From a virus (lineage: Duplodnaviria > Heunggongvirae > Uroviricota > Caudoviricetes): a stretch of DNA of 20,162 nucleotides. The notes beneath the pieces were generated by a model, which saw only the letters and a program-made list of their open reading frames with translations, was not told the DNA's origin and ran no database searches. The number at the start of each line of letters is the position of its first letter. The stretch's first letter is position 1. The stretch lies in the IMG/VR virus record IMGVR_UViG_2684623171_000007. The stretch is one strand, 5' to 3'. Below are positions 1-13,888 of the stretch, one piece after another. Position numbers and translations under genes: made by a program.

Positions 1-274
1 ATCTACAAGTGCCTTTTTCTGTCAGCGGTTCTCCTTTCCAGCCAATGAGAACCGTCAGGCGCGCGCCCCGTGGCGGTAGCTGCAACTGACCATCTGCATC
101 ATCCAGCGTGATGGTGAGCTGGTCCGCCTCAAATCCCCGGTTGTCGGTCAGTGACAGGCTCATCAGGCGCTCTGCCACGCCTGACAGCGTTTTACCCTCC
201 GCGAGAATATCAAAATCCGGCACTTTCACGTGGTCTGTGCCCTGACTGAGCAATTGCATGGTGGTGTCGGTCAT
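1..274 (-). CDS. D: tail protein D (P2 gpD-like), N-terminal part; gene continues beyond the window start
   Basis: Minus-strand ATG at ~272-274 preceded by a GGGAGGG Shine-Dalgarno. Translation MTDTTMQLLSQGTDHVKVPDFDILAEGKTLSGVAERLMSLSLTDNRGFEADQLTITLDDADGQLQLPPRGARLTVLIGWKGEPLTEKG contains the LTDNRGFEADQ / LDDADGQ block I recall from P2 gpD. Not in the ORF track because it runs off the window edge. Confidence 0.55.
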   Translation of the reverse strand, partial: MTDTTMQLLSQGTDHVKVPDFDILAEGKTLSGVAERLMSLSLTDNRGFEADQLTITLDDADGQLQLPPRGARLTVLIGWKGEPLTEKGTCR

Positions 275-3861: not shown

Positions 3862-4025
3862 TCACGGTTGTGTGCTTTGAGCACATAGAAGACTTTGTGG
3901 CAGATATTGCCGTTATTTTTAACTGGTCGCCCGCCGAAATCTTCATGATGACGCCCGGCGAAGTGGTTAGCTGGCGTGAGCGGGCGGCACTTCGCAGCGG
4001 GAATGCAGACAATGAAGACTCTTGA
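3496..4025 (+). CDS. E': tail assembly chaperone E+E' fusion, predicted -1 programmed frameshift product (3496..~3812 joined to the -1 frame ending 4025)
   Basis: Heptamer T_TTT_TTG at ~3807-3813 is in the correct phase in the E frame (codons AAT TTT TTG). The -1 frame (ORF track 3789..4025) is open from the slip site for ~70 codons and ends just inside the start of the tape-measure ORF. The same G/GT-type arrangement and T6G motif are established for the P2 E/E' genes. Confidence 0.6.
3807..3813 (+). other. candidate -1 ribosomal frameshift slippery site TTTTTTG
   Basis: Seen directly in the sequence, phased X_XXY_YYZ in the E reading frame. Confidence 0.6.
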
Positions 4026-6815
4026 TATCCGGGTCGCTTTCAGCGCCGTTGACAGGCTGACCCGACCTGCCGAAAACGCACGCCGCCTGATGGGGCAGTT
4101 TGGTGACTCCATCCAGCGAACGCAGGGGGCGATCAAAAATCTCGAGCGTCAGGCGCGATCATTTGAGCGCGCCCGCGACGCTGTCAGTAAAGCGGATGCT
4201 GGCATCGTGAAAGCACGACGCCAGCTTAACGCCCTTAATCAGTTACAACGCACGGGTACAGTGCTCAGCGAAAAACAACAAAAGCTGATGCAGCAGTTAA
4301 GCACCCGGCTTGAACGCCTGAATGAATCGCGCACACGGGAAATTCAGAAAATGAGGGAACTTGGCGGAGAGCTGAAACGCCACGGCATTTCCCTGACAGG
4401 CAGCGATAACACCATTCAGCAGGCCATCAGACGCACCGAACAATACAACAACCAGCTTGAACGCGAACGGCAGGCGCTTGCGCGTGTAACGCAGGCGCGT
4501 GAGCGGTATTCGCACGCGCAGGAAACCGCGGGAAAACTGAAAACAGGTGGTGCGCTGGCAATTGGTGCGGCAGCGGCGGGCGGCTATGCTGCCGGGCGTT
4601 TTTTGCAGCCTGCGATCGGGTTCGGCAAAGAGATGTCCCGCGTTCAGGCACTGACGCGAATCGACAAAAACAGCCCGCAGTTTAAGGCGCTGCGTGAGCA
4701 GGCGTTAAAACTTGCTGAAACACAGTTTACTGCGAGTGATGCCGCCAGTGGGCAGAGCTTTCTGGCAATGGCTGGTTTTACTCCGCAGGCCATTCAGGCC
4801 GCATTGCCCGGTGTTCTTAATATGGCGCTGGCAGGTGGCGTCGAACTCGGCGAGACGGCTGATATAGGCTCCAATATCCTCACACAGTTCAACCTGACAG
4901 CCGATCAAATGGACCGGGTGGGCGATACGCTGACAGCAGCATTTACCCGGACCAATACTGATTTACGCGCGCTGGGCGAAACCATGAAGTATACCGGTCC
5001 GGTTGCCGCAAAACTTGGTATCAGTCTTGAAGAAGCGGCGGCCATGGCCGGGATGCTTGCCAATAATGGTCTTCGCGGAAGCGATGCTGGCACGGCCATG
5101 CGCGCAAGTCTGTCCCGCCTTGCATCACCGCCAAAAGCTGCGGCTGATGCACTGAAAGAGCTGGGGGTGTCAGTTGCTGAGGCCAGAGGCAAAATGCGCC
5201 CGATGGAGGATGTGCTGCTTGATCTCTATAAGGCGACACAAAAATACGGACAGGTGGACCAGGTCTCCTTCTTCAAGGACATCGCCGGAGAAGAGGCGTT
5301 CGTTGGTTTGCAGACGCTTGTTGCGGCGGCTGGTTCAGGAGAGCTGCAAAAACTGACCAGAGAATTGCAGGGGGCAAGGGGAGAGGCCGATCGCGTCGCA
5401 AAAGTAATGGCTGATAATCTTGATGGGGACCTGAAAAATCTCGACAGCGCATGGGAAGGTCTTCGTATTCGCATCAGTGATCTGGTTGACGGTCCGCTGC
5501 GTTCTGTCACGCAGTGGCTCACGCGGGTGCTTGAAAAAATCACCTCGCTGGCGCAGGCCCATCCGGTACTGACGCGCCAGCTACTGATAGCAGGCGGTGC
5601 GTTGCTGGCAATGACTGCAACGATTGGCTCGTTGTCGCTGGTTATTGGGGTGCTTTACGGGAAGCTGGCCACCCTGCGTCTTGGTTTTGACATTCTTACC
5701 CGGTCAATGAATGTCGTCAGGGTGTTACCTGCGCTATGGGGAATGGTGACGGGTTCCGTTTCTTTACTGGGAGGCGTTATCGGGGCGTTGTTCAGTCCGG
5801 TTGGTCTTATCGTGGCTGCGCTTGCCGGAGCTGCCGTTCTTATCTGGAAATACTGGGATCCTATCAGGGCTTTCTTTGCCGGGGTGTTCAGCGGGATTAT
5901 GGAAAGGCTGACCCCGTTGCGCGACACCTTTGAACGGTTTGGCCCTGTTTTTGACGTAATCGGAAGCGGTTCAGCCAGGTGTTTAACTGGTTTAAATCGC
6001 TGCTGTCACCGATGGAGTCCAGCAAGGAAACGCTGGATAAATGTACCAGTGCTGGCGAGGTATTCGGTAACGTTCTTGGTGGTGCGTTACAGCTTGTTCT
6101 GACGCCTGCAAAAATGTTGCTGGATACGCTGGCGTGGATACTTGAAAAACTCGGTGTGCTTCCGGATGAAGCGGAAAGGGCGCGCAAGAAAATCGAAGAC
6201 GCACAACGTGCGGCCATTCTTCAGGACAAGGTTGCTCTGTTTCAGGGAGACATTGCGAAAATCAATCCGCCGAAGTCTGCGGGAAATAGCAATGGCACCG
6301 GAGATGATAAACCCAAAGACAACAAACCTCTCACAGACAGCAATACCGGCACGCTACGCAGACTCAGCAAAATTGCTGATAACACAGGTAAGCTGGTTGA
6401 TGAGACAAAAAAACGCATTGGCCCCGGCGATATTGTCTTTAAGAACCTGCCCCGCGCACTTGCTGTTCGTGGGGAGTGGCAGGAGCGGAAGATTGCGCAG
6501 GTCAGTAAGCCTGCCCCCGCAATTAATATCACACCCGTGGTCCCGGCTCCGCTGCCTCCGGCGCTGGTCCCTGTTGTTGCGGCCAGCTCCCGCCCGGTGG
6601 TGGAGGCCATACGATCGCCAGTGGCATCAGTTCCTGCAACTTCCCGTAACCGGGAGCCTGTTGCCTCCGGATTTGGCGGTGAAATTCATGTTCATCTGCA
6701 TAACGTTGTTACGCAGAATCCCCGCGAACTGGCGAAACTGGTCGGCGAAATGGTCAGGGCAGAAATGGAACGGCGCGCCCGTGCCAGGCGTGGCAGTTTT
6801 TACGATAAAGATTGA
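3976..6815 (+). pseudogene. T: tail tape measure protein (P2 gpT-like), split into two frames by an apparent 1-bp frameshift near 5966-5980
   Basis: ORF track 3976..6102 (708 aa, GTG at 3976; alternative in-frame ATGs at ~4003 and ~4012) is coiled-coil-rich with a long hydrophobic stretch, as expected for a tape measure. ORF 5979..6815 (278 aa) continues in the -1 frame with no gap. Around GGAAGCGGTTCAGCCAGGTG, one extra T (GGTTTCAGC) would give a continuous ..FDVIGSGFSQVFNWFKSLL.. reading. The C-terminal frame ends 13 nt before the U gene. Confidence 0.7.
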
Positions 6816-6827
6816 GGAGTCATGGCC

Positions 6828-7316
6828 ATGATGATGATCTACGGCATGTTTGTTTTTGAGCTGCGCACGTTGCCGCATCAGCAGTTACAGCAAAACAAAA
6901 GCTGGCGACATGTGAAAAATGAACGCGTTAACCGTTCAGCAAGCTGGCAGTATATCGGTGCAGGTGATGATCGCATCGTTCTTTCTGGTGTTCTTTATCC
7001 TGAGATTACTGGTGGCGAAGTGTCGCTGTCGTTGTTGACCACGCAGGCATATACAGGACGTCCTTGGCCTTTGATTGATGGCGTCGGGCAGATTTACGGC
7101 ATGTATGTCCTGACCGGAACGAATACGACCCGCTCCGAGTTTGATCGCTACGGTAAGGCGAAAAAGATAGAATTTTCACTGACTCTTGAACGCTGTGATG
7201 AGGATTTGCGGGAGCGCCTGCAATCCTCATCGTTCAGCGATATGCTGTCCGGCTTCAAAGATAAGGTGACATCATCCCTTAATAGCGCGGCCAGCTCAGT
7301 TAAGGGGCTGCTCTGA
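6828..7316 (+). CDS. U: tail protein (P2 gpU-like)
   Basis: ORF track 6822..7316. GAGGAG Shine-Dalgarno at ~6814-6819 is best spaced for the ATG at 6828 (MMMIYGMFVFELRTLP...). Motifs YPEITGG and WPLIDGVGQIYGMYVLTG resemble P2 gpU as I recall it. Confidence 0.8.
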   Translation: MMMIYGMFVFELRTLPHQQLQQNKSWRHVKNERVNRSASWQYIGAGDDRIVLSGVLYPEITGGEVSLSLLTTQAYTGRPWPLIDGVGQIYGMYVLTGTNTTRSEFDRYGKAKKIEFSLTLERCDEDLRERLQSSSFSDMLSGFKDKVTSSLNSAASSVKGLL

Positions 7317-7439
7317 TTTAACGTATGTCGCCAATTTCCTGATGAAGGTGACTGGCGACTTGCTGTTGTATGTCCTTCTCAGAAAATTGTTTTTGAATAA
7401 CAAATAACAGGATTTTATAATCTCTTAACCTTATAACAT

Positions 7440-8045
7440 GTGTGGTCTGAAATAATAATTAAGGAGATTATCGTGCTATCTTACTTAATGGCAATTCACT
7501 TTGTTTTATTTGGAAACTCTACTAATTTAAAAAACTTCTGGAAACATGAAGTAATTCGGCGGAAACGTATGGATATCTGGAGGCTTTTAAGAGAGAAAAA
7601 ACAGCGTAACCGGAATTTCCTTTTCTGGTGGCGGTTGGCTAACGAAATGTATATTAATGGTAATAAATTACATAAGAAAGCAGCCAAAAAGTTAAACAGT
7701 AAAATAATTAACAAGTTTGGTTGTGAAATAGGATTGGGCGCAAATATTGGAAAAGGGTTGACAATTCCCCATCATGCTGGAATTGTTGTTCATTTTGCTG
7801 TTGATGCGGGTGAAAATCTGGTATTACGACAGAATACTACCATTGGACAGATAGATGGTGATATGCCTAGTTCAAGAGTAAAAATTGGTAGTAACGTTGA
7901 TATCGGAGCTAATTGTTGCATCATTGGATTATCACGTAAAATTGGGGATAATGTAAAAATAGGTGCAATGTCTTTTATAAATAAAGATATACCATCAAAC
8001 TGCACATATATAACTAAAAAGAGTGGTGTTGTATTGTATAAATAG
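7440..8045 (+). CDS. hexapeptide-repeat (left-handed beta-helix) acyltransferase, serine/sugar O-acetyltransferase-like; low-GC cargo gene
   Basis: ORF track 201 aa. Likely true start is GTG at ~7473 after AAGGAG (MLSYLMAIHF...). Tandem hexapeptide [LIV]-G-x-x-x-x pattern (GCEIGLGANIGKGLTIPHHAGIVVHFAVDAGENLVLRQNTTIGQIDG...VKIGSNVDIGANCCIIG..KIGDNVKIGAMSFI) typical of the CysE/WcaB/LacA acetyltransferase family. The segment 7320-8090 is visibly AT-rich compared with the flanking tail genes. Confidence 0.7.
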   Translation: MWSEIIIKEIIVLSYLMAIHFVLFGNSTNLKNFWKHEVIRRKRMDIWRLLREKKQRNRNFLFWWRLANEMYINGNKLHKKAAKKLNSKIINKFGCEIGLGANIGKGLTIPHHAGIVVHFAVDAGENLVLRQNTTIGQIDGDMPSSRVKIGSNVDIGANCCIIGLSRKIGDNVKIGAMSFINKDIPSNCTYITKKSGVVLYK

Positions 8046-8054
8046 AGTACATAA

Positions 8055-8090
8055 AGCCATCGATATTTCTGTCGATGGCTTTTTCTTTTT
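8055..8090. terminator. candidate bidirectional rho-independent terminator between convergent genes
   Basis: Perfect 9-bp stem AGCCATCGA / TCGATGGCT with an 8-nt loop, followed by TTTTTCTTTTT on the plus strand and preceded by an A-rich run. Lies between the acyltransferase stop (8045) and the tfa stop (8089). Confidence 0.55.
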
Positions 8091-8621
8091 ATTGTGGGGC
8101 GACTGGCCACTCAACATCCGCTGCTACTGTTGTATCAACACGATTCAACAATACCCGATATGTCTTCCATGCAGCCAGTAACGATGCCTCTTCCTCCGTC
8201 GCAATATCCAAATCTACGGCATCCTGAAGTGGCGCAATATGCTCACTGGCTACCTGCATCAGGCTGTTTTTTGTTTCTTCTGCCTCCCGTACCCGAAACA
8301 GTTTTTCTGCTTCTGCATCTTTCGCCCAGGATGTGCCGTTCCACTTCTGACACTCTCCATCCGGCGACAACCAGGTAACATTTTCCGGTAACGGACCGAG
8401 TTCAGAAATAAATAACGCGTCGCCGGAAGCCACGTCATAAACCGTTTTACCCCGATGATCTTCAACGAGATGCCACGATGCCTCATTACTGTTGAAAACA
8501 GCCACGAAGCCAGCCGGAATATCTGGCGGTGCAATATCGGTACTGTTTGCTGGCAGACCTGTATGAGGCGGAATGTATGCGTCACCTTCACCAATAAATT
8601 CATTAGTTCCGGCCAGCAGAT
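8089..8621 (-). pseudogene. tfa: tail fibre assembly protein (Tfa, P2 gpG-like), 5'-truncated by the IS629-like insertion at 8622
   Basis: ORF track 8089..8505 (GTG-initiated) ends ..[30 protein letters not shown], the characteristic Tfa C-terminus. The same frame stays open upstream to the IS boundary (..[45 protein letters not shown]..), matching the internal part of Tfa proteins as I recall them; about 15-20 N-terminal codons and the start codon are missing. Confidence 0.85.
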
Positions 8622-8675
8622 TGAACCGCCCCGGGAATCCTGGAGACTAAACTCCCTGAGAAAGAGGTAAACAGG

Positions 8676-9002
8676 ATGACTAAAAATACACGTTTTTCCC
8701 CCGAGGTCCGTCAACGGGCAGTCCGTATGGTTCTGGAAAGTCAGGGCGAATATGACTCACAATGGGCGGCAATTCGTTCCATTGCCCCAAAGATTGGCTG
8801 TACACCAGAGACTCTGCGTGTGTGGGTTCGTCAGCATGAGCGGGATACCGGGGGCGGTGATGGTGGACTCACCACCGCTGAACGTCAGCGTCTGAAAGAG
8901 CTGGAACGTGAAAATCGTGAACTGCGCCGCAGTAACGATATCCTTCGCCAGGCTTCCGCTTATTTTGCGAAGGCGGAGTTCGACCGCCTCTGGAAAAAAT
9001 AA
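8676..9002 (+). CDS. IS629-like transposase OrfA (copy 2)
   Basis: ORF track 108 aa; differs from copy 1 OrfA at 4 residues (V16, G24, R34, T67 versus I, D, C, S). Confidence 0.85.
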
Positions 9003-9678
9003 TGCCGCTGCTGGATAAGCTGCGTGAGCAGTACGGGGTCGGACCGGTATGCAGTGAACTGCATATTGCCCCGTCAACGGATTACCACTGTCAGCAACAG
9101 CGACATCATCCGGATAAACGCAGTGCCCGTGCGCAGCGCGATGACTGGCTGAAGAGAGAGATACAGCGCGTATACGATGAAAATCATCAGGTGTACGGTG
9201 TGCGTAAAGTCTGGCGCCAGTTGTTACGCGAAGGTATCAGGGTGGCCAGATGTACAGTGGCGCGCCTCATGGCGGTTATGGGACTTGCCGGTGTTCTCCG
9301 GGGTAAAAAGGTCCGTACTACCGTCAGCCGGAAAGCCGTTTCCGCAGGCGACCGCGTAAACCGTCAGTTCGTGGCAGAACGTCCTGACCAGCTGTGGGTG
9401 GCTGATTTTACTTACGTCAGCACATGGCAGGGCTTCGTCTATGTGGCGTTCATCATTGATGTGTTTTCCGGATGTATCGTGGGGTGGCGAGTCTCATCGT
9501 CTATGGAAACGACATTCGTGCTGGATGCACTGGAGCAGGCGTTGTGGGCCCGTCGGCCGTCCGGCACAGTCCATCACAGTGATAAAGGTTCTCAGTATGT
9601 ATCACTGGCCTATACGGAGCGACTAAAAGAAGCAAAACTGCTGGCATCAACAGGGAGTACAGGTGACTCGTATGACAA
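9002..9678 (+). pseudogene. IS629-like transposase OrfB, C-terminally truncated (copy 2)
   Basis: ORF track 9002..9691 (229 aa); the last residues (..DSYDNVFY*) are read from non-IS sequence, so the conserved C-terminal ~70 aa of OrfB are missing. Confidence 0.8.
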
Positions 9679-9710
9679 TGTATTTTATTAGTTCACATAC
9701 AATTATCAGA

Positions 9711-10025
9711 TTATTCTGGGAATAAGGTCTGAATATTCTTTTTTATTTTATAAAAATTGCATTCAACTCCGCTAGGCTGATTAGCCTGGTATGTTTCCTT
9801 GATGCTAACGGTATTGAAGGGGAGGTTGTCCTCTGGCCATTCGGCCATCCAGTAGGCAAATGCTGGGTTGCGCTTTATGAGTGCTAGCCCAGCCAGAAAG
9901 GCCGCGCGTTGCGCGCGGCTGCGTTCGGAGGCTGGCAGGCTATCGAGGTAATTGCACGCCTCCTGTTCACTCTTGACGGCGGCGGGCTTCAGATAGAAAC
10001 TTATCCGTCTGGTTGGTGTCGTCAT
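9711..10025 (-). CDS. parR: ParR/StbB-like centromere-binding partition protein (ribbon-helix-helix)
   Basis: ORF track 104 aa; starts 5 bp after the parM-like stop. N-terminal half (RRISFYLKP...LDSLPASERSRAQRAAFLAGLAL) resembles ParR of plasmid R1 as I recall it (..TIAFKLNP..LDSIPQGERSRLNRAALTAGLAL..). The C-terminal third is divergent and encoded by AT-rich DNA next to the IS junction. Confidence 0.6.
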   Translation of the reverse strand: MTTPTRRISFYLKPAAVKSEQEACNYLDSLPASERSRAQRAAFLAGLALIKRNPAFAYWMAEWPEDNLPFNTVSIKETYQANQPSGVECNFYKIKKNIQTLFPE

Positions 10026-10029
10026 TGGT

Positions 10030-10989
10030 TTACTCCTTGTTCATTGCGTACAACCCATTAACCAGAGCAAACTGTGGCACCCCGTCCGCGATGAAAGTCG
10101 CATTAACTCCGCAGGCTTCGCGGATAGCGGTTGCCACAATCTCCGCCCCGCCACCGACAACCATCACCCGCCCGTAACCCGAAAAAACCGCCAGCGCGCG
10201 GATCACGCGTTGTTTCAGTGTTTCTTCCTTTTCACGAATAACCGCCATCAGGCTGGCGTAATGCGCGTCATTGTGGATGTGCTGGCGCAGCCAGGCTTCA
10301 TCATGGCGATGTTCGATAATGGTATTGGCGATGTGGTGACTGGTGCGCATACCGTTAGTGGCCATCACCGACAGTACGGCATCGGCCATCAGAGAAACGC
10401 CTACGTGTGGATCGCAAAACACCTGGCTGATACCTGCCAGTTGCCCCTGAACCTTTGCCACATCCAGCGTGGTTCCGCCCAAATCCACAATCAGCAGGGA
10501 TTCAAACGGACTCATGTCAGCCAGTGCCTTAAAGCCAGCAGGAATGGATTCAGGCATAACCCGTACGTTACGGATAGTGAATGCTTCGCCGTTCTGGTAC
10601 TCCACCGGGCGCATGACGTTCGCTTTTTTGCGGTTGATGTTGGCCATGTCCGGCTGTGCGTTTGTATCGAAATACTCGCTCAGTGGCAGGGTGACAACCA
10701 CATCCACTTCCTGTGGTGTGATGCCTGATTTGACCAGCGCGTGATGAATGGCAATTACATTCACATCGCTGTACTGGTATTGCGTGTCGGTCGTCTGGAC
10801 AAAGCGATCGCTGACCGGATCAAAACCATAGCGCACGCCATCAAGCATGTAGTTCGCGGGCTGCGTGCCACCGAATGGCGCAGACCATTCCGACTTGAAG
10901 CTGTTCGGGCTGATGGCGTTGCGGCGTTCGCCGTTCTCAGTCCATGCCAGCTTGATGTTGGTGGAGCCGTCGTCGATACAAATTTTCAT
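10030..10989 (-). CDS. parM: ParM/StbA-like actin-type partition ATPase
   Basis: ORF track 319 aa with AAGGA Shine-Dalgarno. Family-defining blocks IDDGSTNIKL, ISPNSF, YQYSDVNVIAIHHAL, MPESIPAG, LIVDLGGTTLD, GVSL, FSGY..VMVVGGGAE and LVNGLY align with R1 ParM/StbA as I recall it. Confidence 0.85.
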   Translation of the reverse strand: MKICIDDGSTNIKLAWTENGERRNAISPNSFKSEWSAPFGGTQPANYMLDGVRYGFDPVSDRFVQTTDTQYQYSDVNVIAIHHALVKSGITPQEVDVVVTLPLSEYFDTNAQPDMANINRKKANVMRPVEYQNGEAFTIRNVRVMPESIPAGFKALADMSPFESLLIVDLGGTTLDVAKVQGQLAGISQVFCDPHVGVSLMADAVLSVMATNGMRTSHHIANTIIEHRHDEAWLRQHIHNDAHYASLMAVIREKEETLKQRVIRALAVFSGYGRVMVVGGGAEIVATAIREACGVNATFIADGVPQFALVNGLYAMNKE

Positions 10990-11023: not shown

Positions 11024-11132
11024 ACAGGATTTTTAAATCCCGCTTTTGCCTGTTTTGTGCGCGCTTCATATATCGCGGCGCGTTTTTTGCTCATTTACGG
11101 GATTTGTGAGTCCCGTTTCTGTCTGTTTTTTG
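11024..11132. repeat. two ~36-bp direct repeats, each with internal dyad symmetry, upstream of parM (candidate parC-like centromere/operator or tandem hairpins)
   Basis: Copy 1 ~11024-11059 ACAGGATTTTTAAATCCCGCTTTTGCCTGTTTTGTG; copy 2 ~11097-11132 ACGGGATTTGTGAGTCCCGTTTCTGTCTGTTTTTTG (about 27 of 36 positions identical). Cores GGATTT..AAATCC and ACGGGA..TCCCGT are inverted repeats followed by T-rich tracts. Copy 2 lies inside the last ~20 codons of gene A. Confidence 0.4.
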
Positions 11133-13888
11133 TTTCCACTGGTCAGGCCACCCCGCAGCAGGTCTGCTTTGCGGCTGGCGCGTTCAGTGGTTTCACTGAT
11201 TCTCTGTGCGTGCTCTGCGTCGCGGATGGCGCGCAGCATGTCAGAAAGCACGGTAACGGGTGTTTTCATGGTGTTCTGGTCCTGCTGAAGTGTGGATGCC
11301 AGGCGTGCGGCGGCTTCAGGGTCTGATGCCCCCAGCTGTGCCAGATAGCTGGCGACCGGGTTATGGCGGATCTCCGTGCTGCTTACGCCATGATTACGGC
11401 TCAGGCGCTGCCAGAGCTGCGTGATTCGGCTGTCCGGGCGGGTATCCGGTTTGCGTACAATTTCAAATCCCTGCGGTGCAATGATGCTGCCGTCAACGTA
11501 CAGACTGCCGCCCCGTAACAGGTGCTGCATCTGTTGTTCACCGATATGCAGGCCGAGAGATTCAGCAGACTCCCGCCATTCTTTAGCGAGTAATTCGTGG
11601 TTATCAGGCAAAGGCCGCTGCTGTTTGCGGCTCTGTGTCCAGCTCTGCATTTCATCACTGCTGTTTTTTGCCTGTTTGTCACGAAGCGAACGCATCAGCG
11701 CCCGGCGTTCGTGCCGTTTCAGTGAGCGCATCCATTCGTTCACGTCAACGCCGTCAGGAAGCTGCGGCCACGGTGCTGGCCGTTCTTCCGGCTGTTCTGT
11801 CCCGTTGTTGTCCGTTTCCTGTACACGGGGACAGTTATTGCCACGAGTCCAAGGGGCGGCAGGGCCGCCCTGAAGGTCAAAACCATTTTCGCGGGCGCTG
11901 TCTTCTACTCCCGGTTTACGTCTTACCAGCTTCCAGTTATCCGGGTGCGTGCACACACGGGAGGATTCCCCGATGAGTGGTGACCAGATCCCGTAAATCT
12001 GTACGCTCTGTTCGCCGTAATCGTTCAGCTCATCTGCGAGGTCGTAGGCGGTGCGAATCAGGTAGTCCTTGCGTGGAACAAGTACGCCTCCCTGTTTCTC
12101 AATGTAGGTGGTAAAACATCCGGCATCAGCGGCAGCAAGAACCGCATCCATTGCGTCATCCTTCAGCCGTTGCGGGCCTTCCGGGTTGCGTGCCATCTGG
12201 CTGGCAAGGCGACGCAGTTCACGCCACACCTGACGGGAGGGGATGCCAAAGAACTGGAACTGGCGGACCCGGTGAAGGCGCGCCCAGCCAATGGCGCGTT
12301 CCACGCTCTCGGTCATTGATTTTCCGGTTTCGTGGTCAACGCGTGGTTTGCCTGTTTTCGGGTCGATGCCATCCACGGCGCGGCTGTCCAGGTTTTTTCC
12401 GATGTAGGTGGCGATGTAGCTGGTTGGCGTGCCTTTTGAGCCGTCGACATACTCCGCCTTAAAGCGCGGAGTAATATCATCGCCCAGCTCGTGACGATCT
12501 TCCTGAATGGCAATATCGCGGGTGTGGGACACAATGGTGTCGATTTCTTCCGGATGAGCAAAGACCATCATATGCCAGTGCACGGTGCCGTCATGGTGAG
12601 GCTCCACCGTGCGGATGCCATACCAGCGCAGGCCGTCGCGGTTCAGTTTCTTGCGGACCGCCGCAAAAAACGTGTTAACCAGGTAATCGCTGGAGTCGCG
12701 CATGGTGGCCCCGTTCCATTTGGGATTCGGATGACCGTTCTCTGTTGTAGCGTGGTATTTTGACGGGCAGGTGACAGTCAGAAACACCGCTTTGTCGCCA
12801 CGGGCTTCGGCCAGAAGTTCCAGCCCCTTCATGGTGGCCATCATTTCTGCCTTACGGTGAACCGGGTTACTTACTCCCGCGTAATACACTGTCTCGAGAT
12901 CAATCGTGAACCCGTCTTCGTTTTCCAGCATGAAACTTTTCAGGAAATCGCGTGTTTTCTCGCGCTGTGCGCGAAACTCGCTTAACGCGTCCTGGCTCAG
13001 ATAGGGCGATGTTTTTCTGGAAACCAGACAGGCGGCGCGGAGTTGTTCTTCTCTCCACTCGCAACGTAACAGCCACAGTTTGCGTTTCCACCATTCCGCA
13101 CAGGTCAGGCGAAGGATTGCGCCCGGCAGCAGCTCCGTGTCCGGTTCGTTCCTCCGGTCTTTGTCTGTTGTCAGTGCGTCATAATGTGGAGGCATGGCGT
13201 GCAGGTGTAACGCCATGCGGGCCAGCATCTGATACGCCTTCAGCGTTACATCCATGGTCAGTTCGCCATCGGTCGCGCCAAAGCCATCGCAGAGTTTTTC
13301 GAAGGTGCTGCTGAACATCGCCGCCGTCATGGTGGCCAGCGTCTGTATCTGGTGTTTGTTGAGCTGCGGCAGGTAAAGCAAATCGTCCAGGCGTTCGCGT
13401 CCGGCAAGGGAGCGATAACCCTGTGTCAGCCAGCGGTGATCGGTGCGCTCCAGACGTTCGAATATTTTGCGCAGGTTTCCGCGCGCGTAGCGTTCAGCCT
13501 GCCAGCTCTTTTTGCCTTTCTGACGATCGGCTTCCTGTTTTTTGCGCAGGAAGGAGAGGTGGCGAATAAGCGGATCGCGCAGATAGGACGGCAGCAGGCG
13601 CAGCGAGGCCATGGCTTCATCCACCGCACCGCGTGCCTGTTTTCTGGCGTCTCCTGCCAGTGTGATGGTTTTGTCCTGTTTTTCCTGTGCGTCCAGGCTT
13701 TTATTAATCAGGTTGCCCAGCGGCGTTGCGGAGAACGCCGCATCAGCCATTTCCTGGCGGCGCTCGTTCTCTACCCGGTAGGCATCCAGCCAGGAGGAAA
13801 GCGCGGATTCAGGAGCGGGGATCCCCGTTCCTTCACGCCCCACTGCGTGGCGCGGTTGTTGCCAGTCCCTGATGTACTCTGCCGTCAT
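11066..13888 (-). CDS. A: replication initiation endonuclease (P2 gpA-like, HUH rolling-circle initiator)
   Basis: ORF track 940 aa. Contains an HUH-type motif (DGTVHWHMMVF) and a downstream tyrosine motif (TPTSYIATYIGKNLDS), the arrangement established for P2 A-family initiators. Sits at the distal end of the early operon as in P2. It is longer than P2 A as I recall it (~760 aa), so the real start or C-terminal tail may differ. Confidence 0.8.
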   Translation of the reverse strand: MTAEYIRDWQQPRHAVGREGTGIPAPESALSSWLDAYRVENERRQEMADAAFSATPLGNLINKSLDAQEKQDKTITLAGDARKQARGAVDEAMASLRLLPSYLRDPLIRHLSFLRKKQEADRQKGKKSWQAERYARGNLRKIFERLERTDHRWLTQGYRSLAGRERLDDLLYLPQLNKHQIQTLATMTAAMFSSTFEKLCDGFGATDGELTMDVTLKAYQMLARMALHLHAMPPHYDALTTDKDRRNEPDTELLPGAILRLTCAEWWKRKLWLLRCEWREEQLRAACLVSRKTSPYLSQDALSEFRAQREKTRDFLKSFMLENEDGFTIDLETVYYAGVSNPVHRKAEMMATMKGLELLAEARGDKAVFLTVTCPSKYHATTENGHPNPKWNGATMRDSSDYLVNTFFAAVRKKLNRDGLRWYGIRTVEPHHDGTVHWHMMVFAHPEEIDTIVSHTRDIAIQEDRHELGDDITPRFKAEYVDGSKGTPTSYIATYIGKNLDSRAVDGIDPKTGKPRVDHETGKSMTESVERAIGWARLHRVRQFQFFGIPSRQVWRELRRLASQMARNPEGPQRLKDDAMDAVLAAADAGCFTTYIEKQGGVLVPRKDYLIRTAYDLADELNDYGEQSVQIYGIWSPLIGESSRVCTHPDNWKLVRRKPGVEDSARENGFDLQGGPAAPWTRGNNCPRVQETDNNGTEQPEERPAPWPQLPDGVDVNEWMRSLKRHERRALMRSLRDKQAKNSSDEMQSWTQSRKQQRPLPDNHELLAKEWRESAESLGLHIGEQQMQHLLRGGSLYVDGSIIAPQGFEIVRKPDTRPDSRITQLWQRLSRNHGVSSTEIRHNPVASYLAQLGASDPEAAARLASTLQQDQNTMKTPVTVLSDMLRAIRDAEHAQRISETTERASRKADLLRGGLTSGNKKQTETGLTNPVNEQKTRRDI

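What the first reader, a model, noticed from the sequence alone, without database searches (positions are those of the whole stretch)
7317..8090. AT-rich hexapeptide-repeat acyltransferase gene at the tail-fibre/sheath junction (Z/fun-equivalent cargo position)
A gene with a clear left-handed beta-helix acetyltransferase signature and a basic N-terminal extension sits between tfa and the tail block, closed off by a strong bidirectional terminator. Its composition is sharply different from the neighbours. This is where P2 carries its exclusion gene, so the locus is a known cargo site. An acetyltransferase here could modify surface polysaccharide (lysogenic conversion or receptor masking) or have another protective role.
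Basis: partly seen in the sequence, partly recalled or inferred. Interest (0 to 1): 0.6.

Follow-up and report, generated by a model that had tools for sequence, protein, structure and literature searches.

The report
Tail-fibre-linked phage acetyltransferase cargo gene
A decayed P2-like prophage of E. coli O157:H7 carries an intact, self-contained, AT-rich acetyltransferase gene that in many unrelated phages sits next to the tail-fibre genes, and it most likely acetylates a cell-surface sugar (probably lipopolysaccharide) that such phages use as a receptor, although nobody has tested this.

Summary
The gene is real. It is a 190-aa CDS at 7473-8045 (+), identical to RefSeq WP_000954203, with 33.9% GC against about 50% in its neighbours. 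It has a promoter-like site, a strong ribosome-binding site and a hairpin terminator of its own.

The protein belongs to the CysE/WcaB-like branch of hexapeptide (left-handed beta-helix) acetyltransferases. The catalytic His100 and the acidic Glu85 are conserved. It lacks the N-terminal domain and several serine-binding residues of true serine acetyltransferases and falls far below every curated cut-off.

The gene lies between gpU, the last gene of the tail block, and a convergent tfa, not at the sheath. That U->|<-tfa convergence is native to P88-like phages. P88 itself carries an invertase and alternative fibre genes in this slot.

The new point is synteny. In 15 of 23 informative allele clusters a convergent tfa follows within 150 bp, across P2-like, P1-like, phiNP-like and Hafnia phages. 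Distant chromosomal homologues sit in LPS-core (waa) clusters next to WaaZ.

Best reading: a cargo gene that O-acetylates LPS (core or O-unit) and so alters a phage receptor. Function is untested. The gene is ordinary in kind and moderately interesting.

The parts
6822..7316 (+). gpU-like tail protein. It is the last gene of the FI-FII-E-E'-T-U tail block and forms the upstream boundary of the cargo slot.
   Evidence: Pfam Phage_P2_GpU E=1.5e-38. RefSeq annotates it as 'phage tail protein'. DNA similarity to P88-like phages ends at about 7322.
7393..7421 (+). Sigma-70-type promoter-like site, TTGAAT-17 nt-TATAAT, for the acetyltransferase.
   Evidence: It matches 10 of 12 consensus positions. 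The region as a whole has no more such sites than shuffles do. However, this site, the leader and the ribosome-binding site are conserved even upstream of alleles whose proteins are only 70% identical (L008-L011, L074). Activity has not been tested.
7461..7466 (+). Shine-Dalgarno sequence AAGGAG, six bases before the GTG start.
   Evidence: Read directly from the sequence. It is conserved in relatives.
7473..8045 (+). CDS of 190 aa: a CysE/WcaB-like hexapeptide-repeat (LbH) acetyltransferase, WP_000954203, member of phrog_2154. Residues 1-82 form a basic helical domain and residues 83-190 form the LbH domain. The catalytic residue is His100, with Glu85 as its acidic partner.
   Evidence: dN/dS against other alleles is 0.02-0.17, and all 62 alleles above 85% identity are intact at 190 aa.
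8053..8092 (.). Hairpin with a 13-bp stem (8053-8082) followed by a T tract. It is an intrinsic terminator for the acetyltransferase. The same hairpin lies 6 bases beyond the tfa stop on the other strand, where the U tract is weak.
   Evidence: It is conserved together with the 3' ends of both genes across P2-like and P1-like copies.
8089..8622 (-). Tail-fibre assembly gene (tfa, Caudo_TAP), convergent with the acetyltransferase. An IS3-family insertion cuts off its 5' end, removing the first ~16 codons. The fibre gene H and all further late genes are deleted.
   Evidence: Pfam Caudo_TAP E=2.6e-40. The alignment with the intact O26:H11 prophage breaks at window 8622/8623, where the IS left end begins. 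RefSeq annotation.

Best explanation
The feature is a prophage cargo gene (a 'moron') that travels with the 3' end of the tail-fibre assembly gene.

It encodes a small cytoplasmic enzyme, probably trimeric and membrane-peripheral, of the CysE/WcaB-like LbH acetyltransferase clade.

Proposed mechanism:
1. The gene is transcribed from its own sigma-70-type promoter in the lysogen. This is inferred, not shown.
2. The enzyme uses acetyl-CoA and the conserved Glu85-His100 dyad to O-acetylate a sugar hydroxyl.
3. [quoted passage not shown] The most likely target is lipopolysaccharide: an outer-core sugar, or otherwise an O-unit.
4. The acetyl group changes the structure that LPS-binding tail fibres of P2-, P1- and Mu-type phages recognise. 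The lysogen then adsorbs such phages less well, including relatives that carry the same fibre module.

Shown: the family assignment, the catalytic residues, the cassette anatomy, purifying selection, the conserved synteny with tfa, and the LPS-cluster context of distant homologues.

Inferred: the substrate, the timing of expression and the phenotype.
For: Family and chemistry:
- The best PDB and NCBIfam relatives are CysE, EpsC and WcaB.
- His100 is nearly invariant and position 85 is Glu or Asp in all 40 aligned family members.
- These positions align to the CysE motifs 'DIHP' and 'DHATG'.

Cargo anatomy:
- GC is 33.9% against about 50% in the flanks.
- A promoter-like site, ribosome-binding site and terminator are present.
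- The promoter and leader are conserved across alleles that are 70% identical.
- P88 lacks the gene at the same slot, whereas the intact O26:H11 prophage has gpU -> gene -> | <- tfa <- H <- I <- J.

Selection: dN/dS is 0.02-0.17 and all 62 close alleles are intact. The gene is present in 530 of 5426 complete E. coli genomes.

Link to the fibre module:
- A convergent tfa lies within 150 bp downstream in 15 of 23 informative allele clusters. This holds down to 36-45% protein identity.
- The arrangement is seen in P88-like prophages, P1-like JL22 (inside the cin-invertible segment), phiNP, 613R2, Hafnia phage yong2 and another myovirus type.

Link to LPS:
- A 48%-identical homologue in Leminorella lies inside the waa core cluster, in the order waaG-like, rfaP, waaB, waaI, rfaY, waaZ, [gene], <- rfaL.
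- A Halomonas homologue lies directly after waaZ, which scores 222.9 against the TIGR04437 cut-off of 200.
- A Pseudomonas homologue lies between WaaP-family kinases plus a GT2 and a UDP-sugar dehydrogenase gene with a further hexapeptide transferase.
- A Xenorhabdus prophage pairs the gene with a GT25 glycosyltransferase beside its fibre gene.
- phiNP, which carries a family member next to tfa, uses LPS core GlcII as its receptor. P88-like phiSM uses GlcIII (PMC6456863).

The basic N-terminal domain (pI 11.4) fits binding to an anionic membrane or lipid-linked substrate. This last point is inference.
Against: - There is no experiment on any family member. Papers that notice the gene call its role unknown (PMC9603915) or list it only as 'fitness' cargo (PMC6456863).
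- No curated family cut-off is reached, so the substrate cannot be read from homology.
- LPS-cluster contexts were found for 3 chromosomal homologues. The other chromosomal homologues whose neighbourhoods were listed (6 of them) sit among genes with no evident link to LPS or any glycan pathway; those neighbours were judged from ORF listings only, not scanned against family libraries.
- The synteny with tfa could simply reflect hitch-hiking on a recombination-prone module. Breakpoints lie within the gene itself.
- The structure model is poor for the catalytic half (pLDDT about 50-60), and the fold search gave no significant match.
- The promoter is only a consensus match. A proteome study of O157:H7 did not list the protein among the passages retrieved.
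- To my knowledge, O-acetylation of the E. coli R3 core has not been reported.
Confidence: 0.45

Rival explanations
1. Anti-phage or anti-competitor cargo that works without modifying a glycan. The acetyltransferase would inactivate a phage component, a signalling molecule or a small-molecule toxin or antibiotic inside the cell, as other cargo in P2-like variable loci does.
For: P2-like phages are rich in defence cargo at variable loci, and P2 itself carries exclusion genes (PMC9122126). The gene has moron anatomy and is under purifying selection. The central part of the gene is hypervariable between conserved flanks, as expected for a gene in an arms race.
Against: - PADLOC gives no match.
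- The documented P2 hotspot is gpA-gpQ, not this slot.
- No xenobiotic (Vat/CatB-type) acetyltransferase family appears among the hits.
- The nearest relatives and the chromosomal contexts point to sugar and LPS pathways.
- A hypervariable core fits changing acceptor sugars equally well.
Confidence: 0.15
2. A phage morphogenesis or infection factor tied to the fibre. The enzyme would acetylate the tail fibre, its chaperone or a virion component. Alternatively it would act late in infection to modify receptors on the dying cell, so that progeny are not lost on debris.
For: The adjacency to tfa and the fibre gene is tight and ancient across at least five phage lineages. In P1-like JL22 the gene lies inside the invertible fibre segment and points the same way as the alternative Sv'-U' genes.
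Against: - The gene converges on the late fibre operon, with its own promoter-like site and terminator.
- Close relatives such as P88 make fibres without it.
- Homologues occur in chromosomal LPS clusters with no phage genes nearby.
- The O157:H7 prophage keeps the gene intact although the fibre gene is deleted. That deletion may be recent, however.
Confidence: 0.1
3. A genuine serine O-acetyltransferase, as annotated. It would be an auxiliary metabolic gene that boosts cysteine synthesis for the host or the phage.
For: RefSeq names it 'serine O-acetyltransferase'. All the best solved-structure relatives are CysE. The catalytic dyad and the Arg of the 'RH' motif are conserved.
Against: - TIGR01172 scores 62 bits against a cut-off of 211, and PRK11132 scores 36 against 397.
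- There is no SATase_N domain, and only about 82 residues precede the LbH domain.
- Positions aligned to the serine- and cysteine-binding Asp of 'DH' and His of 'RH' are Pro99 and Val. The residue roles come from my knowledge of the E. coli and H. influenzae CysE structures.
- The protein ends ...VVLYK, without the C-terminal tail that binds CysK (my knowledge).
- E. coli already has cysE.
Confidence: 0.05
4. Neutral hitch-hiker or relic. The gene would have no current function in O157:H7 and persist only because it sits in a recombination-prone fibre module of a decaying prophage.
For: The prophage is heavily degraded by IS30, IS1203, an IS3-family element and a frameshifted tape measure. O157:H7 copies are at least 99.8% identical, so they say nothing about selection since the decay.
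Against: Across alleles dN/dS is 0.02-0.17 and no close allele is disrupted. Catalytic residues are conserved to 36% identity. The promoter and ribosome-binding site are conserved.
Confidence: 0.05

Closest known systems
CysE serine O-acetyltransferase (LbH family; PDB 6WYE, 4N69, 1T3D)
   Same: It is the closest relative with a solved structure (profile E=5e-24). The alignment runs from the last alpha-domain helices through the whole beta-helix. The catalytic His and its acidic partner are conserved.
   Different: The window protein is about 80-100 residues shorter at the N-terminus and lacks SATase_N. Two substrate-binding positions are changed. It scores far below the equivalog cut-offs. 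It works like a CysE-type acetyl-CoA O-acetyltransferase but is not a member of the serine acetyltransferase family proper.
WcaB (colanic acid) and EpsC-type short polysaccharide O-acetyltransferases
   Same: They share the short architecture of a truncated helical N-terminus plus an LbH domain of about 160-190 aa. They are the best NCBIfam hits (EpsC 2.7e-21, WcaB 5.6e-15). The motif around the catalytic His resembles that of WcaB (and my knowledge of the WcaB sequence).
   Different: Scores are 76 against 150 and 55 against 196, so it is not an equivalog. The gene is encoded on phages beside tfa rather than in an exopolysaccharide operon.
NeuO of prophage CUS-3 (a phage-borne LbH O-acetyltransferase of the K1 capsule) and Oac of Sf6 (O-antigen acetylase)
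   Same: They are functional precedents (my knowledge): temperate-phage cargo that O-acetylates a surface polysaccharide and changes antigenicity and phage sensitivity. NeuO is also a hexapeptide-repeat enzyme.
   Different: NeuO did not appear among the 60 best-scoring PDB matches shown, of 120 with E <= 0.01. Oac is an integral-membrane AT3-family enzyme. Neither is linked to tfa. The target proposed here, the LPS core, would be new for a phage enzyme.
P2 Z/fun locus and the P88 invertase/alternative-fibre slot
   Same: Both are variable cargo positions immediately beyond the 3' end of the fibre-assembly gene in P2-family phages.
   Different: In P2 the neighbour on the other side is the sheath gene FI, whereas here it is gpU because the tail block is inverted. 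Homology to Z/fun was not tested.
Receptor-blocking genes linked to receptor-binding genes (T5 llp next to pb5; cor next to fibre genes in phi80/N15)
   Same: The logic is the same (my knowledge): a gene that disables the receptor is kept next to the gene that recognises it.
   Different: Those are lipoproteins that plug FhuA. Here the proposed action is enzymatic modification of a glycan, and it is unproven.

Membership tests
Hexapeptide-repeat (LbH) acyltransferase superfamily | Tandem imperfect hexapeptide repeats, [LIV]-G-x4 | tested here: met
   Pfam Hexapep E=2.7e-5 and Hexapep_2 E=0.0033, both below the gathering score. Nine [LIV]G repeat starts lie between residues 86 and 163. There are many LbH hits in NCBIfam and PDB.
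Hexapeptide-repeat (LbH) acyltransferase superfamily | Left-handed parallel beta-helix fold that forms a trimer with active sites at subunit interfaces | tested here: inconclusive
   The AlphaFold2 model predicts short strands through residues 96-170, but pLDDT there is only about 50-60. The best Foldseek PDB hits are all CysE, yet E is 3.5e-3 or worse and TM is 0.43 or lower. The oligomeric state could not be tested.
CysE serine O-acetyltransferase (EC 2.3.1.30) | Score above the curated equivalog cut-off | tested here: not met
   TIGR01172 scores 62.3 against 210.65, and NF008349 scores 36.4 against 397.
CysE serine O-acetyltransferase (EC 2.3.1.30) | N-terminal alpha-helical SATase_N domain | tested here: not met
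   There is no SATase_N hit in Pfam. Alignments to CysE chains begin at chain residues ~110-140. Only 82 residues precede the LbH domain.
CysE serine O-acetyltransferase (EC 2.3.1.30) | Catalytic His with an acidic partner | tested here: met
   His100 aligns to the His of 'DHATG', and Glu85 aligns to the Asp of 'DIHP'. Among 40 family members His100 is at least 90% conserved and position 85 is always Glu or Asp.
CysE serine O-acetyltransferase (EC 2.3.1.30) | Serine/cysteine-binding residues (the Asp before the catalytic His, and the Arg-His pair) | tested here: not met
   Pro99 replaces the Asp. The Arg is kept but Val replaces the His (alignments). The roles of these residues come from my knowledge of published CysE structures.
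WcaB / EpsC polysaccharide O-acetyltransferases | Score above the curated equivalog cut-off | tested here: not met
   EpsC scores 76 against 150. WcaB scores 55.2 against 196 and 54.1 against 194.65.
WcaB / EpsC polysaccharide O-acetyltransferases | The gene lies within a surface-polysaccharide biosynthesis cluster | tested here: inconclusive
   This is not true of the window gene, which is prophage cargo. It is true of distant homologues in the Leminorella waa cluster, next to Halomonas waaZ and in the Pseudomonas core/O-antigen region.
Phage moron / lysogenic-conversion gene | An autonomous cassette (own promoter and terminator) with composition unlike the phage backbone | tested here: met
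   The promoter-like site at 7393-7421 and the terminator at 8053-8092 are consensus-level evidence only. GC is 33.9% against about 50%.
Phage moron / lysogenic-conversion gene | Present or absent at one slot among otherwise collinear relatives | tested here: met
   P88 has an invertase plus Sv'/tfa' at the slot. The O26:H11 prophage has this gene. L008-L010 have a 70% allele plus a methyltransferase. 613R2 has an allele about 36% identical in the same slot.
Phage moron / lysogenic-conversion gene | Expressed from the prophage and changes a host phenotype | not testable with these tools
   No expression or phenotype data were found.
Known anti-phage defence systems (PADLOC-DB) | Match to a defence-system protein model | tested here: not met
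   There were no families at E <= 1.
P2 Z/fun locus | Lies between tfa (G) and the sheath gene (FI) | tested here: not met
   The gene lies between gpU and tfa. The sheath gene is at the far end of the tail block. Sequence homology to Z/fun was not tested.

The most novel reading that the evidence does not exclude
This phage family (phrog_2154) could be a set of LPS-core O-acetyltransferases kept next to the fibre or chaperone module as a matched 'receptor-editing' partner of the receptor-binding protein. Its hypervariable central cassettes would track different core sugars. That would be the first phage conversion enzyme acting on the LPS core rather than on O-antigen or capsule. It would also identify the chromosomal homologues beside waaZ and in Pseudomonas core clusters as the still-unassigned core O-acetyltransferases.
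Probability: 0.3. Interest if true: 0.65.

Novelty: new member of a known kind. Interest (0 to 1): 0.4.

Why it matters
If the enzyme acetylates LPS, about one in ten sequenced E. coli would carry a hidden, phage-borne modifier of a major phage receptor and innate-immune ligand. These strains include the O157:H7, O26 and O111 Shiga-toxin lineages.

That would matter in three ways:
- for phage-therapy host-range prediction;
- for LPS-based typing and vaccines;
- for understanding why tail-fibre modules carry passengers when they move between P2-like, P1-like and other phages.

It would also give a testable candidate for the unidentified core O-acetyltransferases of Pseudomonas and other bacteria (PMC8005017).

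If instead it is an ordinary polysaccharide acetyltransferase with a minor phenotype, the main value is to correct the misleading 'serine O-acetyltransferase' annotation.

Tried and rejected
- Structure: the AlphaFold2 model (pLDDT 70.6) is confident only for the helical N-terminus. Foldseek against PDB gave CysE at the top, but E was 3.5e-3 or worse, so it adds nothing beyond the sequence evidence.
- PADLOC gave no hit. PHROGs only gave phrog_2154, of 'unknown function'.
- Eight literature searches found no functional study. The two P2 hotspot papers do not mention an acetyltransferase. The O157:H7 proteome supplement returned only the housekeeping cysE. The paper on E. coli core types (PMC97256) is not held.
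- The genome-contig scan returned mostly very distant LbH enzymes from other phyla. Only about 14 loci were usable. Of these, three were in LPS contexts, one retained a short tfa-like remnant just downstream, and the 6 others whose neighbourhoods were listed sat among genes with no evident glycan link, judged from ORF listings only.
- I first considered that the window was a plasmid because of ParM/StbB. I rejected this: the sequence is chromosomal O157:H7, and partition genes are common cargo of P2-like phages.
- I considered that the gpU/tfa juxtaposition was an IS-made artefact. I rejected this because intact relatives have the same arrangement.
- I considered compensatory changes in the terminator between the O157 and O26 copies. 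There were none; the differences simply shorten the stem.
Full report
**1. What is in the window**

The window is chromosomal DNA of E. coli O157:H7, with 100% identity over 7200-8200 to many O157:H7 chromosomes. It covers a decayed P2-family prophage that lies between a tRNA-Leu/IS30 region and yecA. The gene order in window coordinates is:
- a gpD fragment;
- a sheath fragment (432-1439);
- IS1203 (1480-2693);
- tube;
- gpE and E';
- a frameshifted tape measure;
- gpU (6822-7316, +);
- the gene in question;
- tfa (8089-8622, -);
- a partial IS3-family element;
- StbB and ParM;
- the replication gene A;
- early genes and the integrase.

**2. The observation**

RefSeq places the CDS at 7473-8045: a GTG start, 190 aa, protein WP_000954203, named 'serine O-acetyltransferase'. 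AAGGAG lies six bases upstream of the start. Homologues align from residue 1-2, which supports this start rather than the GTG at 7440.

The composition is clearly foreign. The gene is 33.9% GC with GC3 of 0.28. gpU is 49.9% GC and tfa is 49.6% GC.

A TTGAAT-17-TATAAT site lies at 7393-7421. A 13-bp hairpin with a T tract lies at 8053-8092 (-21.3 kcal/mol, z = -4.0). On the minus strand the hairpin also folds (-16.1 kcal/mol, z = -4.2), but only UUUAUGU follows it and the scan calls no terminator there. 'Bidirectional' is therefore only partly supported.

The neighbours are gpU and tfa.

**3. What the protein is**

- Pfam gives weak Hexapep hits.
- The best NCBIfam hits are EpsC (76 bits against a cut-off of 150), CysE (62 against 211) and WcaB (55 against 196), so no curated family is reached.
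- The best solved relatives are all CysE, at E=1.5e-12 with the single sequence and 5e-24 with a 40-member family profile. The alignment runs from the last helices of the CysE alpha domain to the end of the beta-helix.
- His100 aligns with the catalytic His of 'DHATG'. Glu85 aligns with the Asp of 'DIHP'. His100 is at least 90% conserved, and position 85 is Glu or Asp in all 40 family members.
- The positions that bind serine or cysteine in CysE are only partly kept. Pro replaces the Asp before the His. The Arg is kept. Val replaces the following His. There is no SATase_N domain. The roles of these residues come from my knowledge of the CysE structures.
- The N-terminal 82 residues are helical (pLDDT about 90) and very basic (pI 11.4). 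The LbH half is poorly modelled, and the fold search is not significant.

The protein is therefore a CysE/WcaB-like LbH acetyltransferase and very probably not a serine acetyltransferase. PHROGs places it in phrog_2154, of 'unknown function' (E=2.9e-87). PADLOC has no match.

**4. Is the position native?**

Yes. Intact relatives have <- gpD | FI FII E E' T U -> [acetyltransferase] -> | <- tfa <- H <- I <- J <- W <- V <- S <- R. This order is seen in the O26:H11 11368 prophage and in four further prophages whose allele is 70% identical.

Phage P88 (Xuanwuvirus, Peduoviridae) has the same backbone. In the slot it carries <- invertase, Sv' -> and tfa' ->.

The U->|<-tfa convergence is thus a lineage feature, and the slot is a variable cargo position just beyond the 3' end of tfa. 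It resembles the P2 Z/fun position only in that sense.

In the window, an IS3-family element whose left end starts at 8623 has removed the first ~16 codons of tfa and all late genes from H to Q. ParM/StbB next to gene A occupy the gpA-gpQ hotspot described for P2-like phages (PMC9122126).

**5. The link to tfa**

The same gene-terminator-tfa module occurs in other phage types.
- In P1-like phage-plasmids (JL22, Ro157c2YLVW, and many of the 69 plasmid records with a match) the DNA match runs from within or at the start of the gene through tfa.
- In JL22 the gene ('sacF') lies between U' and tfa. It sits inside the cin-invertible segment, which is bounded by 602-nt inverted repeats.
- The module also occurs in an unrelated myovirus-type prophage, in Citrobacter phage phiNP (44% identity), in E. 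coli phage 613R2 (36% by tblastn; same gpU slot) and in Hafnia phage yong2 (35%).

I ran a census of 102 loci with an HMM for tfa. It gave 26 allele clusters at 95% identity, of which 23 had downstream sequence.
- 15 clusters have a convergent tfa within 150 bp.
- 1 has a convergent tfa further downstream.
- 2 have a co-directional tfa upstream; at least one of these (L087-type) follows a large fibre-like ORF.
- 5 have no tfa in the locus. One of these (Xenorhabdus) lies beside an ORF in the fibre position that has no family hit.

The linkage persists while the acetyltransferase diverges to 36-45% and tfa to about 38%. It is therefore old.

**6. Evidence of function and of cassette exchange**

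- dN/dS against the window allele is 0.02-0.17, and all 62 alleles above 85% identity are intact.
- The gene is present in 530 of 5426 complete E. coli genomes.
- Alleles are mosaic. The L008 allele is about 95% identical to the window in the promoter, leader, first ~90 nt, last ~90 nt, terminator and tfa 3' end. It is only 50-70% identical across 7560-7957.
- The JL22 allele differs in the promoter and first ~45 codons and is then 90-100% identical.
- P1-like copies have a different upstream region with its own near-consensus promoter-like site.

**7. What it may act on**

The evidence here is contextual.
- A Leminorella grimontii homologue (48% identity) lies inside the LPS-core cluster, in the order waaG-like, rfaP, waaB, waaI, rfaY, waaZ, [gene], <- rfaL.
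- A Halomonas homologue lies directly after a waaZ that passes its TIGR04437 cut-off, and before a UDP-glucose dehydrogenase gene.
- A Pseudomonas homologue lies between four WaaP-family kinase genes plus a GT2 and a UDP-sugar dehydrogenase gene with a further hexapeptide transferase.
- A Xenorhabdus prophage has int | [gene] -> GT25 glycosyltransferase -> | <- an ORF in the fibre position.
- phiNP, which carries a family member beside tfa, adsorbs to LPS core GlcII. The P88-like phage phiSM adsorbs to GlcIII (PMC6456863).
- The core O-acetyltransferases of Pseudomonas are still unidentified according to the same paper.

Against this, the other chromosomal homologues whose neighbourhoods were listed lie among genes with no evident glycan link, judged from ORF listings only. 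No experiment exists for any member. The JL22 paper states that the reason for the gene's presence is unknown, and the phiNP paper lists it only as fitness cargo.

**8. Verdict**

The interpretation of cargo acetyltransferase, possibly masking a receptor, is the best reading. The P2 Z/fun analogy is loose, however, and the 'serine acetyltransferase' annotation is probably wrong.

My confidence in the individual steps is:
- about 0.95 that it is an active LbH acetyltransferase;
- about 0.65 that its substrate is an envelope glycan;
- about 0.3-0.4 that this glycan is the LPS core.

The full proposed mechanism is held at 0.45.

The kind of thing is known: phage-borne surface-glycan acetyltransferases such as NeuO and Oac. 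I therefore class it as a new, uncharacterised member of a known kind. The conserved coupling to tfa and the waaZ-adjacent homologues are the parts worth following up.

Noticed in passing
window 8-274, 432-2693, 3976-6815, 8623-9691: The prophage is heavily decayed. IS30 truncates gpD, IS1203 splits the sheath gene and the tape measure is frameshifted. A partial IS3-family element (left end at 8623) has deleted everything from the 5' end of tfa through the fibre, baseplate, lysis and head genes. The acetyltransferase, ParM/StbB and the early region remain intact.
   Followed up: partly
window 9711-10989 (minus strand): StbB and ParM plasmid-partition genes lie next to replication gene A (11066-13888). 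This is the gpA-gpQ cargo hotspot of P2-like phages, where about a quarter of them carry a partition system (PMC9122126). It does not indicate that the window is a plasmid.
   Followed up: partly
window 7560-7957 compared with L008 and L002: Acetyltransferase alleles are mosaic. The conserved flanks are the promoter with the 5' end of the gene, and the 3' end of the gene with the terminator and tfa 3' end. They bracket a central region that is only 50-70% identical between alleles, and recombination breakpoints fall inside the gene in P1-like plasmids. This looks like cassette exchange or diversifying selection.
   Followed up: partly
L008-L010, 7617-8605: In some relatives the slot holds extra cargo. 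A SAM-dependent methyltransferase gene follows the acetyltransferase, preceded by a duplicated 87-aa tfa 3' fragment and followed by the full-length tfa. This suggests that cargo is added by recombination within tfa.
   Followed up: no
L002 (phage JL22) 3401-4002 and 8263-8864: In P1-like JL22 the acetyltransferase lies near the centre of the cin-invertible fibre segment, bounded by 602-nt inverted repeats. It points the same way as the alternative Sv'-U' genes, so read-through into it could depend on the orientation of the segment.
   Followed up: partly
L003-L007, 6662-7573: A 57%-identical paralogue sits just after a hok-like toxin gene, at the end of a prophage remnant next to copA. It is found in very many E. 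coli assemblies (594 index blocks).
   Followed up: no
L096 5132-6519 and L105 5001-6384: The homologue lies immediately downstream of waaZ (Kdo III transferase) in both Leminorella grimontii and a Halomonas genome. This is a recurring pair that may mark an LPS-core O-acetyltransferase.
   Followed up: partly
window 7327-7359: A 7-bp inverted repeat (GTCGCCA...TGGCGAC, with a 19-nt loop) followed by TTGCTGTTGT lies just after the gpU stop, near where similarity to P88 ends. It may be a weak terminator for the tail operon. Alleles in L008-L011 have a different, stronger-looking hairpin at this place.
   Followed up: no
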